NCBI GenBank assembly: GCA_030265395.1
Contig: JARFYF010000060.1
Coordinates: forward strand, 11,365,324-11,429,323
From: Rhina ancylostomus
Lineage: Eukaryota
Direction of reading: 5' to 3'
Length of the DNA stretch: 64,000 nt
The stretch's first letter is position 1. Each line of letters opens with the position of its first letter. Position numbers: made by a program. Positions 15,901-57,900 of this stretch are shown one piece after another.

Positions 15901-18900
15901 AAAGATATCAAAATATTGTTTTTACTTTTACATTATGTCTCATTTAATAGATCTAAATATCCAATGCTTGAAAAATGGATTGCACCTATTTTCTGGATTT
16001 ACTGAAATGTTGTTGCATATAGCCTTGGAGACGAATTGGGTCCCCCTCAAAATAATTTACAAAATTGGCCAAGATCCAGTGTGAAACGGTGATATGGTGG
16101 TTTACACCAGAAATTAATGCTAGAACAGCACTAATATCTTAATGCAGTGACTGATATTTAGTACTAGTAACGCAAAGGAAATTCTCCCTTTTATGTTTTC
16201 AATATAATACAGTTCTGCAATAATTACTCCTATTATTAATAAGCTTCTACATTAAATATATGTATTGATTTGAAGTTCAACTTGTGTAACTTTTTCTGGT
16301 ATTAATATATTTGATCACATTGAAAAATTACTATTAATGAGCAAAATTTTATATTCATTGACTTATTTCATCTTTTATTTAATAGAAGTTTCACTGTTAA
16401 TGTCAAAGTTTGGAGCATCCATGAAAATGGGACTGAAATGTGATGTCATCATCTTCATTTTCTGCTTCAACCTGATCAGTCAGTCAACAGGTAAAATATG
16501 ATATTTAACATGGGGAGTGTTGAGGACTTGGGATTTAACTGAGTTGTGACAGAGCTGTTTTTTTTGTTTGATAGTGCTAATCTTCCAAACCCTTTTTCAA
16601 TGTATTTCATTACATACATTGCACACCGCTACTCTGCTCAACTCAAGTACGTGTACAACAATGTGCAATTCAAATTGCTTTGAATGTTACTTGGGCAGCA
16701 AGGTAGTGCAGTGGGTAGTGTTGCTGTCTCACAGTTCCAATTACCATCTCACAGTTTACCCAAATCTCTGATACCATCTGTTTAGAATTTCTACACTGCC
16801 CCTGTGACTATATGTGTGTTTCCCCTGGAATCCTGCTGGTTATAAGATTAATTGGCAACTGTAAATTATCCCCAGATAGGTAGTGTCAGGGGAGTCAAGG
16901 TGGTAGGAGATAGAGCAACTTGCAGAGAAGTAGTGAGGAAATGGAACTGACGGGATTCCTCTGAAAATGCATCGACCCGATTGACCAATTGGTCTCCCTC
17001 TTGGTCATAAGAAAATATGAAAACATGTACTTGAAATTCCTTGATTTATTGTGTTAGTTTGGGTGAGCTCTGCATGAGGAATTAGCAGAACCTAACAGCC
17101 TCTCGTATCTTGCATGTGTTTGTTTCTACACGGTTTGGGATTTTAATTTTGCTTTTACATAAAAAAAGACAATGTTTTTACTTCAGGCCCTTTAGCAAAA
17201 CAGTAGCCACTTAAACTGATCCAGGTTTAATTCAAAATCCCTGAACAGTCTTCCTTTAGTTCGAGAATATCTATTTTGACACCAGTAGAGGTTATCATTG
17301 ACATTGGTTTCTGGAGCTAAAATGCAGCTAACTGGAATAATATGGTGACTTTGACCCATGTCTTCAAGTAGTGTGTTATCATCCATCAAACTGCCACCGA
17401 ATGCTGTCTTTGTTACTTACCCTGTAGATTAGAAGATTAAAGAACCTTGGAATCTTTTCAACGTGTAACTCTGCAGACATGTTTATGTATTACTAATAGA
17501 TCAATGAACAACAGTGCATGAATAGCAACTGCATTCAAATTTTACTAACATTTGTATCCTGTTTGACATTCACAGTGGTTTCTCAAAGAAGTGGCAAAGG
17601 CTCAAAAGAGGTAAAATAATTCACTCTAATTTTCATATTGTGTAAAGGAATGTTTGAAGAGAAGTGGGGCCTTTAATCCTAATGCATTCCAATTGTAATC
17701 CCCCTGAAGCTGCTTGCCTTGATTTTACTTGTGTTAAAGCTAGCTCGTGGAGTTCTGCTGGTATGGATCTCTCAATAAAAATGAATCACTGGATTGTCAA
17801 CAATACCAAACTCCTACATCAAACAATTCTGTTTGATGAGCAAGCAGAATTGGGAAAGCTTCCTTTTGCAAATCTGCTCATTGAATTTTGGCTCGAGGCA
17901 ACAACAAACACATTGTGTGAGTACTGCATTTCCAATCAGAGGTCTACCATTCCTGGATGAGACCACAGAGACTTGCATTTATATATCACCTTTAATGTGA
18001 CAAAATGTCCTGAAGATCTTCAACTGAGCCACATAGATTTTAGAGTCAAAAGGTTGGTCAAGGGAACAGGTTTTAAGAATCATCTTCAAGAAGTAAAACA
18101 GGGTTGAGACTAAAGAGGTTTGTTGAACTCCTTCCAGAGACTGGGACCTTGGTATCTGAAAATTTGGCTGTTTATAGTTGAGTAATTAAATCCAGGGGTG
18201 ATTAAGATCTGAGAATTGGAGAAAGTGCAGGTACCTTGAGGGATATGTGGCAGCGGAGATTGTAAGGACAGGGAGGAAAGAGAAATTAGAAAGCATGGGT
18301 GAGAATTTTAAAATCAAGGCATTCCCTAACCAGGAGCCATGTATATCAACAATGCAGGGGAATTGTCAGCGAATGGAACTGGGTATGAATAAGCCAAAGA
18401 CATAAGATTTTGGATGAAGAATACTTCCATCTCCCTTCTCTTTGCCCCTCCTGAAGAGCCAAACCATTTGTTTACTGAATCTTTTGAGGCCTCACAATGT
18501 CATCATTCTTCATGTATGAACTTGAATGGTATTCAGATATTGTTCACCCTGCTGGCTGATTCTGATCAGCCATGCCATTCAATCATATGAAATGGTAGTT
18601 CAAGTAACTGCATAGTGAAGCAGAAATAGGGACTCTGGCTGATAGCGACTTGCCCAGATCCAGAGGCAAGTCGCTATCAGCCAGATATACAGCTAAAGCA
18701 TCCCTATTGATGCATTGGGTGAAATTGCCCTGGATTAATGGTCAATCCTGGAATTTACTGCCCAATGTTTTAATTACATATTTGGTGTTTTGTTCATCTC
18801 TGAATCTTTAAGCGATCCTAAATCAATTATATTTTCAACAACATTAATTTATATTGCAGCAACTCTAATTTCTACTGCAAATTTAACATTGGCAAATATC

Positions 18901-54900: not shown

Positions 54901-57900
54901 CCAAAATTCAGAAAGACTTAGAGATCTTTTCAAGTATGCCAAGGAGTGCCTGGTAAGTGTTAAAGAAGTCAGGAGATTCAAACATTAATATGCTGCAAAT
55001 ATTTTGTGGTTAATAACATTAAAACAATAGGAAGTTATATGGAGCTCATCCAGACAGCAACCTTGGGATTTCGAGTGCATCACACAACTCAGTGGGTCAG
55101 GCAGCATCTATGGAGGGAAATGGACAGTTGATAGTTTGGGTCAACACCCGTCATCTGGACTGAGATTTCAGTGTTGTCTATATATTTAAAACATATCCAT
55201 CGCCTTCAGTTTTTATTTTAGTTATTGTTTAGGGAACAGTGGTTGAGGAAGAGTGTTCACTTGCTCCTCTTTTATGTAGTCTTAGCTTTCCAAATAGAAC
55301 ATTCAAGTCAGTTCACAAACTTTAACCTCTGTCTACAATCTTCAAACTGCTTTTTTAGATTTTACAAGTACCAGTCAATCTCAAGTACATTTTGTAGTTT
55401 ATTCAATGTGTTGCATTGTAAGAAGGCATGCATCTTATACTTTGCCTAGCCCAGCATCAAATGCCTTCCACACTCAGTTCAATCCCAAATTAAATGACTT
55501 AAATTCCACCCTCCAATTCATGCAACAATTCACAGTCTAAACTTCTTTTCTAAACTCTGCAATCCCACATACCAAATTTGTTAACATAGCTAACAGCTGA
55601 GGTATCTATGGGTTTAAGGACAAAATTCTGACCAAAAGATTGAAATTTAAGTTTAGAGTGGGGATTAATGGAATTCAACAGTGTCACTTGGTCATGAATA
55701 AAAAAGTTGCAGATAATAATGTGAAGTGCAAAAGGAACCATATCCCAGTCTGTGGAAAAAAATAATTTCAGCTGTTCCATCTCGGTTTGAGACTAGCTCC
55801 ATAAAATACATCTTTGCCTGTTAATGTGTCATCCAGCTCTAATCTCTCCACTCCACCGGATCTCAGGATTAAAAATGTCAGATGATATGACAGTCCTCGG
55901 CCTCCTCCACTTCCAGGAGAATTCCAAGCACAAACTGGAGGGACAGCATCTCATTTTCTGTCTTGGAACCGCATCTAACAGCATGAACATTGAATTCTCC
56001 CACTTTAGGTCATCCCCACCCTGCCTCCCCACAACACTTCCCCCACCATGCTGCTTCTGTTCTTCCCTTTCCTAGTCTCTTTTTTTTCTCNNNNNNNNNN
56101 NNNNNNNNNNNNNNNNNNNNNNNNNNCTCCTTACCTTTGACCCATCCCCCAGCGGATCTGCTCTCCCCTCCTGTCTATCACTATCTCTTCCTTGTATCTA
56201 CCTATCACCACCTTGTGCCCACCCCGCCTCCCCTCTTTTGTCCACCTCTCACTGCTCTGCTTTCCCCTACTCTCTTGTATATTGGACTTCCCCTTTTCCT
56301 ATTTTCAGTCCTGAAGAAGGGTCCTGACCCGAAATGTTGATCACCTGCTTTTCTCCACGGATGCTGCTTGGCCTGCTGAGTTCCTCCAGCATCATAGTGT
56401 TTTTCATTTAGAAATGTCACTACTCTTAGACAGAGTAACAAATGGAGTGCAAAATTGAAACCATGCTCTGAAGGTACTCTTTAGCCTATTTTTCATCTTA
56501 AGAGAGTGCCAATGGTCTGGGAAATAACAGTAGGTTTGAAGAGGTAGTACTTCAATTTGAAGAGGTAGTGCTAGTTGAGGCAAGAAGTGGATTAACATAC
56601 TGGACTACCAGCAACTGCTTTGAATTGGTTGATTGACCTCTGCATGAAAATGTTGCTGCACAGAATAAAGATAAGGCTCTGATGATGCTATTTGAAAAGT
56701 CAATATGTGACACCTCAGTCAGAACTGCCTTTTAGATATCATCAGTCCAATAGTAGGATGTTGGTTCTTTTCTGTAGGTGTCAATGATTTGCTACATCTT
56801 CTCAGGATGGCTGTTGAGATCTGAAATGGTTAATAAGTTGCAGTCATTCCACTTCTGCTTGAAAATCACAAATCAGAAAGCATTTAACAGGTTTTATTAG
56901 CTGATGTCTTTTAATGCTGTTGCTAGATTTTGATTTTGTAATGTCACTGCATATTGGAACTAGAATTTAGTGTAATGTTTAAAATGTAGCCCAAAACTTC
57001 AATTCTGAAATGCCAATGACAGATGGATCATTTAGTAAATAACATGCGCCAATGGAACGAGTTAAACAGTGTCCATCTGGAGATGTTTCAGTTTCCAATT
57101 TGGGATTTGCTGACTTCTGAATTATACCAATTATAGTAAATATTCTATTATAAAGGCTGTCAGTTTTTGCATTTCATTATCGTCTATTTTGATATGACCT
57201 GACTTGGAACAATAACGTGGTTGTCAAACAATATTCAGTAAGGGTAAGATCAGTGGACCATGGGTTGGGTATTCTGACCAGGGTCATATAATTCTGGAAA
57301 GGAGAGGAAATCCAGAAGGTGAGAAATGTTTCTGAGACTCTCTCATTGTATTTCCATTGTTTGAGATGCATTGAATATCAATCAGCTGTTTCTAACAGAC
57401 TCTGTCTCTTCCTTCATGGCTTTCAATCCTTGGCCCATAGAGGCAAAGCTCATCATCCAGGGCAAAAGATTAAAAATGTGACAGTTGTGAGTTTACATAA
57501 GGTCACTAGATTTCTCCTTTTCATGGTTCTCTGTAGATTTTGAACAACTCTTAACACCTTGGCTTGGTTTGGTCATTCCTTGGCATGAAGTCATGTGGAT
57601 TAATGTCAATCTGCTCCTACCTCCTGGCCATATTTGATTTTGCTCAGAGCAACATACTTGAGCTGTTAGATGCTAAGTGTCCAAAATACAAATAGAATAC
57701 AAAATACAAAAAGAAGGTGAAGAAAACAGAATGCACAAAATCATTTCATCACATTTTTTTGTTGGCATCTCAACAAGTGATTTAAATTTTAAGAAAAGTT
57801 AAAGACATTAATGAAGAACAAATTCAGAGAGAGAAAAGTGCAGAGAATTAATATTTCACTCTAGGTGCATGGAAAAAAAATGAAAGTGAGTGGAAATTTC

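What the first reader, a model, noticed from the sequence alone, without database searches (positions are those of the whole stretch)
16400..54952. Divergent, N-terminally shortened otoancorin-like paralog, not recoverable as one ORF from the ORF track
Seen: 14 exons splice into a stop-free 600-aa frame with a signal peptide and 11 N-x-S/T sequons. Knowledge: OTOA, STRC and MSLN are surface-anchored alpha-helical superfamily proteins; OTOA and STRC link acellular gels to sensory epithelia. Inference: similarity to recalled human OTOA begins only near OTOA residue ~200, after just ~75-100 mature residues here, and identity looks modest. This suggests a separate paralog lacking about 100 N-terminal residues. 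In a shark/ray it could anchor a gel in lateral-line cupulae or ampullae of Lorenzini, or act in another mucosa. That role is speculative.
[Added by the scan's program, not by the reader: the finding's places include an assembly gap (unread letters, written N; its length is only estimated) at 22751 to 22865, 24504 to 24599, 27822 to 27921, 44249 to 44272, 49779 to 49794, 51242 to 51341. Whether the letters on both sides are continuous or in frame is not known: test that first.]
Basis: partly seen in the sequence, partly recalled or inferred. Interest (0 to 1): 0.7.

Follow-up and report, generated by a model that had tools for sequence, protein, structure and literature searches.

The report
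Third otoancorin-family paralog in a ray
This is the front 57% of a ray gene for an uncharacterised, ancient sister of the inner-ear gel-anchoring protein otoancorin; databases already label it "otoancorin-like" but nobody has studied it.

Summary
Fourteen + strand exons (16400-54952) add up to 1800 nt, or 600 codons, with no stop. All acceptors are AG, 13 donors are GT and one is GC. There are 11 N-x-S/T sequons. Five of the six N gaps lie in introns. The sixth (44249-44272) lies inside exon 13 and hides 8 codons.

All 14 exon peptides, searched one by one, match RefSeq "otoancorin-like" of Pristis pectinata best or near-best (P0001, 1056 aa; 91.4% identity over 591 aligned residues). They cover its residues 1-594 in order. 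The remaining 462 residues lie outside the window.

Trees of 42 named proteins show three strongly supported jawed-vertebrate clades:
- tetrapod otoancorin plus a shark/ray gene;
- teleost "otoancorin" plus a second shark/ray gene;
- this gene's clade, with 26 rows from cartilaginous fishes, bichir, sturgeon, gar, bowfin, lungfish, axolotl and a frog. None is a teleost or amniote.

An AU test rejects orthology to tetrapod OTOA. This clade's N-terminus is about 85-110 residues shorter than in the other two.

Function is untested. The likeliest role is a glycosylated, probably GPI-anchored, helical solenoid that tethers a gel or mucus. Interest is modest.

The parts
16400..16490 (+). Exon 1 (91 nt, ends in phase 1). 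Contains the start codon and a signal-peptide-like N-terminus. The start that is conserved across orthologues is the third ATG, at 16427.
   Evidence: 87% identity to P0001 residues 1-30; M10 is invariant in alignment A1.
17576..17610 (+). Exon 2 (35 nt), AG acceptor and GT donor.
   Evidence: 90% identity to P0001 residues 33-42 (E=0.023; short exon).
23478..23644 (+). Exon 3 (167 nt) with 4 sequons. It has no credible match in the other two otoancorin clades.
   Evidence: 94.5% identity to P0001 residues 43-97, E=8e-34.
25263..25429 (+). Exon 4 (167 nt). Detectable similarity to the other otoancorin clades begins here. It ends in a K/D/G-rich low-complexity stretch.
   Evidence: 96% identity to P0001 residues 99-153; weak hits to clade A/B residues ~207-269.
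28897..29039 (+). Exon 5 (143 nt). It continues the K/D/G-rich linker, which is 6 residues longer here than in Pristis.
   Evidence: the linker has pLDDT below 50 in the model of P0001.
30474..30610 (+). Exon 6 (137 nt) with 2 sequons.
   Evidence: 91% identity to P0001 residues 196-240.
31466..31577 (+). Exon 7 (112 nt) with 2 sequons. It falls within the Pfam Stereocilin region.
   Evidence: 95% identity to P0001 residues 242-278. The surrounding ORF gave Stereocilin PF21058 at E=0.0044, below the cut-off.
31776..31991 (+). Exon 8 (216 nt), the longest exon, with 1 sequon.
   Evidence: residues 1-71 of this exon were the query (3 ray hits, best 94% identity); E=4e-40 to P0001.
36406..36573 (+). 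Exon 9 (168 nt), followed by a GC-AG intron (donor GCAAGT).
   Evidence: 89% identity to P0001 residues 351-406.
37734..37877 (+). Exon 10 (144 nt).
   Evidence: 92% identity to P0001 residues 407-454.
38628..38683 (+). Exon 11 (56 nt). Its last two residues and the split codon form a sequon.
   Evidence: 89% identity to P0001 residues 455-472.
42273..42378 (+). Exon 12 (106 nt).
   Evidence: 94% identity to P0001 residues 474-508.
44232..44350 (+). Exon 13 (119 nt). It contains the assembly gap 44249-44272 (24 N, 8 unread codons).
   Evidence: both flanks match P0001 residues 509-547 in one frame if the gap is 24 nt, and P0001 has 8 residues there.
44249..44272 (.). Assembly gap inside exon 13, left unfilled.
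54814..54952 (+). Exon 14 (139 nt), ending in phase 0 at a GT donor. The gene continues beyond the window.
   Evidence: 91% identity to P0001 residues 549-594. No match to residues 595-1056 at 54953-64000 or at 1-16399.

Best explanation
The locus is the 5' part (14 exons, 600 codons, about 57% of the protein) of the ray orthologue of a gene that RefSeq labels 'otoancorin-like'. It is neither OTOA nor the teleost-type otoancorin. It is a third family member that was already separate before cartilaginous and bony fishes split.

Its clade is found in cartilaginous fishes, bichirs, sturgeon/paddlefish, gars, bowfin, lungfish, axolotl and a frog. It was not found in teleosts or amniotes.

Likely mechanism:
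- The protein enters the secretory pathway through an N-terminal signal peptide.
- It is heavily N-glycosylated.
- It folds into one long all-helical ARM-like solenoid.
- It is held on the apical cell surface by a C-terminal GPI anchor, which is encoded outside the window.
- It tethers an overlying acellular gel or mucus to the cell. Otoancorin does this for the tectorial membrane, and mesothelin does it for the mucin MUC16.

Shown here: the gene structure, the family, the paralogy, the shorter N-terminus, and the helical fold of the orthologue. Inferred: signal-peptide cleavage, glycosylation, the GPI anchor, the gel-tethering role and the tissue.

My confidence is about 0.95 for the identity and paralogy, and about 0.55 for the gel or mucus tethering mechanism. 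The tissue is open. The single confidence value given for this explanation (0.7) is a blend of the two.
For: - **Gene model.** 14 exons, 1800 nt, consistent phases and no stop.
- **Exon-by-exon matches.** 14 of 14 exon peptides hit this clade best. Identity to P0001 is 91.4% over 591 aligned residues, and the exons cover P0001 residues 1-594 in order.
- **Family.** P0001 matches Pfam Mesothelin (73.4 bits, cut-off 25.8, residues 464-1001) and Stereocilin (51.4 bits, cut-off 26.6, residues 231-379).
- **Orthologues.** 15 and then 20 proteins in the word-index searches. The all-against-profile search gave 536 hits at E<=1e-3. Every hit above 580 bits is a named non-teleost, non-amniote protein.
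- **Tree.** 42 named rows, 917 columns. This clade (19 rows) has support 99/99, the tetrapod-OTOA clade 100/100 and the teleost-type clade 100/100. Heptranchias and Narcine are present in all three.
- **AU test.** Grouping with tetrapod OTOA is rejected (21 rows, LG+G4, delta lnL 367, p 3e-86).
- **Reciprocal hits.** Bird and frog OTOA hit shark P0040 at 45% and 43% identity over the full length, against 25-28% for this clade.
- **N-terminus.** hhalign gives 38-1051 against 146-1181, and 41-1053 against 125-1122.
- **Fold.** The AlphaFold2 model of P0001 has pLDDT 84.4 and pTM 0.81 and is entirely helical. Foldseek returns helical solenoids, and the one solved family member, mesothelin 7ued_M, at E=1e-4, probability 1.00 and 18% identity.
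- **C-terminal tail.** 15 of 17 clade rows listed end in a hydrophobic tail (mean Kyte-Doolittle of the last 18 residues above 1.2) preceded by small residues.
- **Known roles of relatives.** Otoancorin attaches the tectorial membrane to the spiral limbus (passage read in PMC4281357). Mesothelin binds MUC16, and all three named family members are predicted ARM-type superhelices (PMC2628672, title and start of abstract only).
Against: - Nothing here shows expression, glycosylation, GPI anchoring or binding to any gel.
- The full-length analyses (Pfam, tree, fold, C-terminus) were done on the Pristis orthologue as a stand-in.
- On the window's own exon ORFs, Pfam gave only one sub-threshold hit (Stereocilin, E=0.0044, in 1 of 10 ORFs).
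- The PDB sequence search with the clade profile did not find mesothelin. It found only one designed helical protein.
- Foldseek TM-scores are low: 0.09-0.18 normalised on the query, and 0.37 on mesothelin. 23 generic solenoid chains are listed ahead of mesothelin, which has rank 25.
- Eight codons of exon 13 are unread.
- Relations among the three clades, the lamprey genes and the outgroups are unresolved. So 'third ohnolog from the early vertebrate genome duplications' is a reading and has not been shown.
- Absence from teleosts and amniotes rests on predicted proteomes clustered at 50% identity.
- Two of 17 clade rows lack a hydrophobic tail, probably because the models are truncated.
Confidence: 0.7

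Rival explanations
1. It is the true OTOA orthologue of this ray, and the short N-terminus comes from missed 5' exons.
For: The RefSeq name is 'otoancorin-like'. Pfam domains are shared with OTOA. One bowfin member of this clade is even named 'otoancorin isoform X2'.
Against: - Heptranchias and Narcine have a different gene in the tetrapod-OTOA clade, with support 100/100.
- The AU test rejects the grouping (p 3e-86).
- Bird and frog OTOA hit that other gene at 43-45% identity, against 25-28% for this one.
- In A1, 14 of 14 elasmobranch models hold the conserved Met and hydrophobic leader (M10 and G11 are invariant columns). Exon 1 carries this start and leader.
- tblastn with residues 561 onward of five orthologues (the only query run at E up to 1000) found nothing credible upstream of 16400.
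Confidence: 0.02
2. It anchors the gel of surface sensory organs of aquatic vertebrates, meaning lateral-line cupulae and/or the jelly of ampullary electroreceptors.
For: - The clade is kept by aquatic non-amniotes and was not found in amniotes: 0 of 26 clade rows in the 119-row tree are teleost or amniote (names).
- In axolotl head epidermis, probes annotated otogelin and otoancorin fell during induced metamorphosis. The authors linked this to lateral-line organs (passage read in PMC2262897).
- Relatives tether gels to sensory epithelia (PMC4281357).
Against: - Gar, bowfin and the frog Pyxicephalus keep the gene. By my recollection they have no ampullary electroreceptors, so an ampulla-only role does not fit.
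- Teleosts have lateral lines, but no teleost protein was found in this clade.
- The axolotl probe cannot be assigned to a paralog, because supplements are closed.
- The main text of the paddlefish lateral-line transcriptome paper PMC5429088 has 0 occurrences of otoancorin, otoa, otogelin, tectorin, stereocilin or mesothelin. I could not see its gene lists in the supplements.
Confidence: 0.2
3. It works in the inner ear alongside OTOA, with the paralogs dividing the gels between them (otoconial membranes, cupulae).
For: The named function of the closest family members is in the ear. Sharks and rays keep all three paralogs.
Against: There are no expression data. Loss in both teleosts and amniotes would need the remaining paralogs to compensate.
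Confidence: 0.25
4. It tethers mucus on a non-sensory epithelium (larval or adult skin, gill, gut), as mesothelin binds the mucin MUC16.
For: Mesothelin-MUC16 is a precedent (PMC2628672, start of abstract). The axolotl head-skin signal for otoancorin together with otogelin is equally compatible with a mucus layer. By my recollection an otogelin-like protein is a main gel former of frog tadpole skin mucus; PMC3957375 was seen in the search listing only.
Against: There is no direct evidence. None of the 25 papers listed mentions otoancorin.
Confidence: 0.2
5. It is a decaying or unexpressed copy in this genome.
For: Eight codons are unread and the 3' 43% of the gene is not in the window.
Against: All 14 exons are open, with intact splice sites and 91.4% identity to the Pristis protein. 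The clade is conserved from chimaera to frog, with 14 invariant columns, 6 of them cysteines, across all three clades.
Confidence: 0.04

Closest known systems
Otoancorin (OTOA) of tetrapods, with its shark/ray orthologues (clade B here: Calypte P0043, Spea P0044, Heptranchias P0040, Narcine P0058)
   Same: Same superfamily. The two align over nearly the whole length (41-1053 against 125-1122). The bird, frog and Heptranchias rows share the hydrophobic C-terminal tail (3 of 4 clade-B rows; Narcine P0058 lacks it), and all four carry many sequons.
   Different: - Only 26-27% identity.
- A separate clade with 100/100 support, and an AU test rejects the grouping.
- About 85-105 more N-terminal residues in OTOA.
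- No RX[KR]R site in any of the 4 clade-B rows, against 13 of 17 rows in this clade.
Teleost-type 'otoancorin', with a second shark/ray paralog (clade A here: eel P0036, Mugil P0047, Narcine P0032, Heptranchias P0028)
   Same: Same superfamily. The two align 38-1051 against 146-1181. Some members share an RX[KR]R site at the equivalent place (3 of 5 rows).
   Different: 23-29% identity. A separate clade with 100/100 support. About 100-110 more N-terminal residues.
Stereocilin (STRC)
   Same: Pfam Stereocilin PF21058 matches residues 231-379 of the orthologue above its cut-off. It belongs to the same predicted ARM-type superhelix family (PMC2628672, title and start of abstract).
   Different: The frog stereocilin-like protein P0144 has 1855 aa and sits on a long branch outside the three otoancorin clades. 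It aligns only from profile position 238 on.
Mesothelin (MSLN), the only family member with solved structures
   Same: Pfam Mesothelin PF06060 matches residues 464-1001. Foldseek finds 7ued_M at E=1e-4 and probability 1.00. Mesothelin is GPI-anchored and binds a mucin (abstract starts in the listing). By my recollection its precursor is cleaved by furin, and most members of this clade have a furin-like site in a disordered loop.
   Different: 18% identity over 275 columns and TM 0.37 on the mesothelin chain. It was not found by the sequence profile in the PDB. The chimaera mesothelin-like protein falls in the outgroup.

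Membership tests
Mesothelin / stereocilin / otoancorin superfamily | Pfam Mesothelin (PF06060) and/or Stereocilin (PF21058) match above the curated cut-off | tested here: met
   Met on the orthologue P0001 (73.4 and 51.4 bits; cut-offs 25.8 and 26.6), to which the window's exons are 91.4% identical. On the window's single exon ORFs only one sub-threshold Stereocilin hit appeared (E=0.0044, 1 of 10 ORFs). The joined model was not searched.
Mesothelin / stereocilin / otoancorin superfamily | All-helical superhelical (ARM-type repeat) fold | tested here: met
   The AlphaFold2 model of P0001 has pLDDT 84.4 and pTM 0.81 and contains only helices. Foldseek returns helical solenoids and mesothelin 7ued_M (E=1e-4, TM 0.37 on the target). 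This was tested on the orthologue, not on the window's own sequence.
Mesothelin / stereocilin / otoancorin superfamily | N-terminal signal peptide | tested here: inconclusive
   Exon 1 reads as basic residues, then a 12-residue hydrophobic core, then small residues. The pattern is conserved in A1. No signal-peptide predictor was available.
Mesothelin / stereocilin / otoancorin superfamily | C-terminal GPI-attachment signal | tested here: inconclusive
   The C-terminus is outside the window. In orthologues, 15 of 17 clade rows end in a hydrophobic tail after small residues. No GPI predictor was available.
Otoancorin proper (orthologue of tetrapod OTOA) | Groups with tetrapod OTOA in a tree that includes the other paralogs | tested here: not met
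   The clades are separate, with support 99/99 and 100/100. The AU test gives p 3e-86 on 21 rows. The same test on 42 rows did not finish.
Otoancorin proper (orthologue of tetrapod OTOA) | Reciprocal best hit with tetrapod OTOA | tested here: not met
   Bird and frog OTOA hit shark P0040 best (45% and 43% identity, 1014 and 915 bits). Members of this clade score 251-322 bits.
Otoancorin proper (orthologue of tetrapod OTOA) | About 200 residues before the conserved LMxxLNxxYD block | tested here: not met
   The block sits at residue ~95-107 here, and at ~204-224 in clades A and B.
Otoancorin proper (orthologue of tetrapod OTOA) | Synteny with the OTOA locus | not testable with these tools
   No neighbouring gene was found in the window. 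No vertebrate genome collection was on hand; genome contigs holds bacteria and archaea only.
'Otoancorin-like' clade C (automatic RefSeq name; no published family) | Each exon is closest to members of this clade, and the exons are colinear with them | tested here: met
   14 of 14 exon peptides fit this. 13 hit P0001 best, and one hits Mobula P0003 best by score. They cover P0001 residues 1-594 in order.
'Otoancorin-like' clade C (automatic RefSeq name; no published family) | Short N-terminus: leader, then a Cys-Gly-Trp-Glu motif, within ~50 residues of the start | tested here: met
   Exons 1-3 encode it. C47, W50 and E51 are nearly invariant in A1.

The most novel reading that the evidence does not exclude
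The otoancorin family has three ancient jawed-vertebrate members, not one. This third member was kept only by lineages that retain the ancestral aquatic body surface: cartilaginous fishes, non-teleost ray-fins, lungfish and amphibians. It was lost independently in teleosts and amniotes. It would be the missing cell-surface anchor for a gel of the lateral-line system (cupula and/or ampullary jelly) or of larval skin.

A corollary is that the teleost gene called 'otoancorin' is not the one-to-one orthologue of mammalian OTOA.
Probability: 0.2. Interest if true: 0.6.

Novelty: new member of a known kind. Interest (0 to 1): 0.33.

Why it matters
Otoancorin is a human deafness gene (DFNB22; table read in PMC4281357), and it is treated as a single-copy anchor of inner-ear gels. 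The data here point to three old paralogs in jawed vertebrates. Sharks and rays keep all three.

The one in this window has no publication. A full-text search for 'otoancorin-like' found 0 papers.

If expression mapping places it in neuromasts, ampullary organs or skin, it would give a molecular handle on how those gels are attached.

The tree also warns that work on fish 'otoa' may not transfer directly to mammalian OTOA.

As a gene find it is modest. The gene is already predicted and auto-named in more than 25 genomes, and its fold and family are ordinary for this superfamily.

Tried and rejected
- **Pfam on single exon ORFs**: only 1 of 10 gave a family-related hit, and it was below the cut-off. 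Single exons are too short for this family.
- **3' exons:** tblastn with residues 561 onward of five orthologues at E up to 1000 found nothing credible at 54953-64000 or 1-16399. The rest of the gene is outside the window, or conceivably in its gaps.
- **Flanks:** ORFs of 65 aa or more on both strands look non-coding or repeat-derived. 0 of 10 long ORFs, in the upstream flank and in introns, hit Pfam. There were no Rfam families and no tRNAs. Synteny therefore could not be tested.
- **PDB by sequence** with the clade profile: one designed helical protein and no mesothelin.
- **Word-index protein searches** reached only this clade plus one frog protein. The other paralogs came from the HMMER representative search.
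- **AU test of the OTOA grouping on all 42 rows** did not finish in two calls. I repeated it on 21 rows with LG+G4.
- **Literature:**
  - otoancorin + ampullary: 2 papers, both about the ear judging by title.
  - otoancorin + lateral line: 4 papers, 1 useful.
  - The two broad searches listed 25 papers each, and none held 'otoancorin'.
  - otoancorin + axolotl: 1 paper. otoancorin + neuromast: 2 papers.
  - The paddlefish lateral-line paper has none of six family terms in its main text.
- **Ampulla-only role:** considered and set aside because gar, bowfin and a frog keep the gene.
- **Not done:**
  - The database orthologue P0001 stood in for it.
  - No human sequence was used.
  - The gaps were not filled.
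  - Genome contigs was not scanned, because it holds bacteria and archaea only.
  - The metagenome and viral collections and the papers' supplements were closed.

Full report
**What is in the sequence**

The window is AT-rich vertebrate DNA with 18 N runs. Stop-to-stop frames on the + strand showed about nine pieces that looked like exons. One of them (31776-31988, 71 aa) hit three ray proteins in the 5.8-billion-protein set, out of 92 candidates. All three are named 'otoancorin-like'. The best is Pristis pectinata P0001 (1056 aa) at 94% identity.

tblastn of P0001 against the window laid residues 1-594 down in 14 colinear + strand pieces. I then read the splice-site flanks and fixed the boundaries. 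The result is 14 exons from 16400 to 54952 totalling 1800 nt, which is exactly 600 codons. All 13 acceptors are AG. Thirteen donors are GT and one is GC (GCAAGT, after 36573). Phases are consistent, no exon peptide holds a stop, and none of the 7 split codons is a stop. I counted 11 N-x-S/T sequons on the per-exon peptides.

**The gaps**

Five of the six gaps named by the scan's program lie in introns. In each case the exons on either side cover consecutive residues of P0001 on the same strand. The scaffold is therefore continuous in order and orientation, and no exon of the Pristis model is hidden in them.

The sixth gap (44249-44272) lies inside exon 13. Its 24 N equal 8 codons, P0001 has 8 residues at that place, and both flanks are in one frame if the length is right. 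The splice phases at both ends of the exon also fit a length of 119 nt. Those 8 codons are still unread, and I did not fill them.

**What the model is not**

It is not a whole protein. P0001 residues 595-1056 have no match at 54953-64000 or upstream of 16400, even at E up to 1000 with five orthologues. Exon 14 ends in phase 0 at a good GT donor. So the window holds about 57% of the coding sequence, and the C-terminus, with any GPI signal, lies beyond it.

**How I searched**

For whole-protein questions I used the database orthologue P0001 as a stand-in.

In the exon-wise blastp against 36 named family proteins, all 14 exon peptides hit this gene's own clade best. Identity to P0001 is 77-96% per exon, and 91.4% over 591 aligned residues. 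The 77% is exon 13 with its 8 X. Identity to the Hypanus and Mobula orthologues is lower; it was 75% for exon 8. The source is therefore a ray nearer to sawfishes than to stingrays. That last step is my inference.

**Family**

P0001 matches Pfam Mesothelin (residues 464-1001, 73.4 bits) and Stereocilin (residues 231-379, 51.4 bits), both above their cut-offs. Single exon ORFs of the window are too short for this. One of 10 gave Stereocilin at E=0.0044, and the rest gave nothing related.

An AlphaFold2 model of P0001, built on a 38-sequence alignment, is confident (pLDDT 84.4, pTM 0.81) and entirely helical. The low-confidence parts are:
- the leader (residues 1-45);
- a K/D/G-rich linker (133-161);
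- a loop at 736-744;
- the stretch before the last helix (1030-1041).

Foldseek against the PDB gave 148 matches at E<=0.001. Most are generic helical solenoids with low TM-scores. Mesothelin, the only solved relative, came at rank 25 (7ued_M, E=1e-4, probability 1.00, TM 0.37 on the target, 18% identity). A sequence-profile search of the PDB found only a designed helical protein. The fold agrees with the ARM-type superhelix predicted for this family (PMC2628672, title and start of abstract).

**Paralog or OTOA?**

The word-index searches found 15 and then 20 relatives: 14 named elasmobranch proteins, one unnamed transcript, chimaera, lungfish, sturgeon, paddlefish and one distant frog protein.

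A HMMER search of 1.84 billion representatives with the elasmobranch profile found 536 proteins at E<=1e-3, of which 124 were at E<=1e-30. I looked up names for 30 of them, and 29 carried a name.
- Hits above 580 bits are axolotl, bichirs, bowfin, gar, sturgeon, lungfish and the frog Pyxicephalus. They align from their own N-termini.
- The next tier (about 230-490 bits) aligns from profile position ~86-160 to protein position ~170-260. It splits into two groups. One holds teleost 'otoancorin' with a second elasmobranch gene. The other holds bird and frog 'otoancorin' with a third elasmobranch gene.

Heptranchias perlo (P0005, P0028, P0040) and Narcine bancroftii (P0007, P0032, P0058) each have all three genes.

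A first FastTree of 119 rows showed this layout (4 rows were dropped as unnamed or near-duplicate). An IQ-TREE analysis of 42 named rows and 917 columns (LG+C20+F+G4, ultrafast bootstrap / SH-aLRT) confirmed it:
- this gene's clade (19 rows): 99/99;
- the tetrapod-OTOA clade (4 rows): 100/100;
- the teleost-type clade (10 rows): 100/100.

Within this gene's clade the branching follows the species tree: chimaera lies outside elasmobranchs, rays separate from sharks, and bony fishes separate from cartilaginous fishes. Relations among the three clades, the lamprey genes and the long-branched outgroups are unresolved.

I tested it in two ways.
- An AU test holding the cartilaginous-fish rows of this clade together with bird and frog OTOA is rejected (21 rows, LG+G4, delta lnL 367, p 3e-86). 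The same test on 42 rows did not finish.
- Bird and frog OTOA hit shark P0040 at 45% and 43% identity over the full length, against 25-28% for this clade.

**The N-terminus**

Exons 1-3 have no credible match in the other two clades (best E 0.14). From exon 4 on there are matches, at residues ~207-213 of those proteins. Profile-profile alignment gives 38-1051 of this clade against 146-1181 of Narcine clade A, and 41-1053 against 125-1122 of Heptranchias clade B. Confidence is low before the LMxxLNxxYD block and high after it.

The difference is not a missed exon. All 14 elasmobranch models in A1 hold the conserved Met (M10 is invariant), and exon 1 carries it with a hydrophobic leader. Whether the short form is ancestral or derived cannot be told without a resolved root.

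**How it probably works**

The following were read directly from sequence:
- a leader that looks like a signal peptide;
- 11 sequons in the window part, and 12-26 per full-length clade member;
- a helical solenoid;
- in 15 of 17 clade rows, a hydrophobic C-terminal tail after small residues, the usual look of a GPI signal;
- in 13 of 17 clade rows, an RX[KR]R motif at ~700-740, inside the disordered loop of the model.

By recollection, the mesothelin precursor is cut by furin, so the RX[KR]R motif could be a similar processing site.

[quoted passage not shown] Mesothelin binds the mucin MUC16 (PMC2628672, start of abstract). I therefore commit to a surface-anchored, glycosylated solenoid that tethers an extracellular gel or mucus, with confidence of about 0.55. 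No step of that mechanism was tested here.

**Which gel?**

The clade's distribution is 26 rows, none from a teleost or amniote. That fits a function lost on land. It also fits simple retention in slowly evolving lineages.

A role restricted to ampullae of Lorenzini is unlikely, because gar, bowfin and a frog have the gene. By my recollection these animals lack ampullary organs.

There is one lead. In axolotl head epidermis, probes annotated otogelin and otoancorin fell during thyroxine-induced metamorphosis, and the authors related this to lateral-line organs (PMC2262897, passage read). The probe cannot be assigned to a paralog without the supplements, which are closed. The paddlefish lateral-line transcriptome paper does not mention the family in its main text, and I could not see its supplementary lists.

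**Novelty**

The gene is predicted and auto-named in RefSeq for more than 25 species, so it is not new as a sequence. No paper in the searched library holds 'otoancorin-like'. I found none that treats the family as three paralogs, but I ran no search aimed at that question, so this is not a claim that it is unpublished.

A side result may matter to people who work on fish ears. Teleost 'otoancorin' and tetrapod otoancorin cannot be forced into one exclusive clade (delta lnL 229, p 3e-95). I named that group after seeing the tree, which weakens the p-value. Each of the two has its own shark/ray partner.

**Verdict**

The function is open. Interest is modest: this is a clean annotation of an unstudied paralog, with a testable and still speculative link to surface-organ gels.

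Noticed in passing
window 36574-37733 (intron 9): The only non-GT donor of the gene. Exon 9 ends ...GCG and the intron starts GCAAGT, making it a GC-AG intron. A GT-only splice search would miss this junction.
   Followed up: partly
window 25400-25429 and 28897-28941 (end of exon 4, start of exon 5): A K/D/G-rich low-complexity linker is split by intron 4. It is 6 residues longer here than in Pristis, which accounts for 600 codons here against 594 residues there. It is disordered in the model (pLDDT below 50 at P0001 residues 133-161).
   Followed up: partly
window 16400 vs 16427: There are three in-frame ATGs in exon 1. The first (16400) is shared with Pristis and Mobula models only. The third (16427, MGLK...) is the invariant Met of all 14 elasmobranch orthologues and may be the real start.
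   Followed up: partly
window 4498-4678, 7628-7808, 46844-47024; also 7818-7950 and 27923-28055: Two interspersed repeat families (3 and 2 copies, 65-75% alike) lie in the upstream flank and in introns. The first lies within open frames of 124-144 aa that have no Pfam match. By recollection they resemble the 3' end of a fish LINE ORF.
   Followed up: partly
window 1-16399 and 54953-64000: No other gene was found on either strand. There were no credible protein matches, no Rfam family and no tRNA. Only a (CA)33 microsatellite at 3913-3979 and a 19-nt x3 tandem repeat at 58833-58889 turned up.
   Followed up: yes
orthologues, P0001 residues 736-744 (outside the window): An RX[KR]R (furin-like) motif sits in a disordered loop in 13 of 17 rows of this clade and in 3 of 5 rows of the teleost-type clade. 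It is in 0 of 4 rows of the tetrapod-OTOA clade. It hints at proteolytic processing like that of the mesothelin precursor (recalled).
   Followed up: partly
related proteins P0036, P0033, P0041, P0042, P0047, P0056 vs P0043, P0044: Teleost proteins named 'otoancorin' form a clade with one shark/ray paralog. Bird and frog otoancorin form another clade with a different shark/ray paralog (both 100/100). Forcing teleost and tetrapod rows together is rejected (p 3e-95; the group was chosen after seeing the tree). Fish 'otoa' may not be the one-to-one orthologue of mammalian OTOA.
   Followed up: partly
related proteins P0022/P0026/P0018/P0023 vs P0027/P0031/P0025/P0019: Within this gene's clade the ray-finned fishes have two copies (bowfin, gar and sturgeon each appear in both). 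This points to a further duplication in early ray-fins (sub-clade support 100/100).
   Followed up: no
related proteins P0029, P0173 (lampreys) and P0070, P0117 (hemichordate, oyster): Lamprey 'otoancorin-like' proteins, and long invertebrate proteins with the same domains, fall outside the three jawed-vertebrate clades in unresolved positions. The family is older than vertebrates.
   Followed up: no
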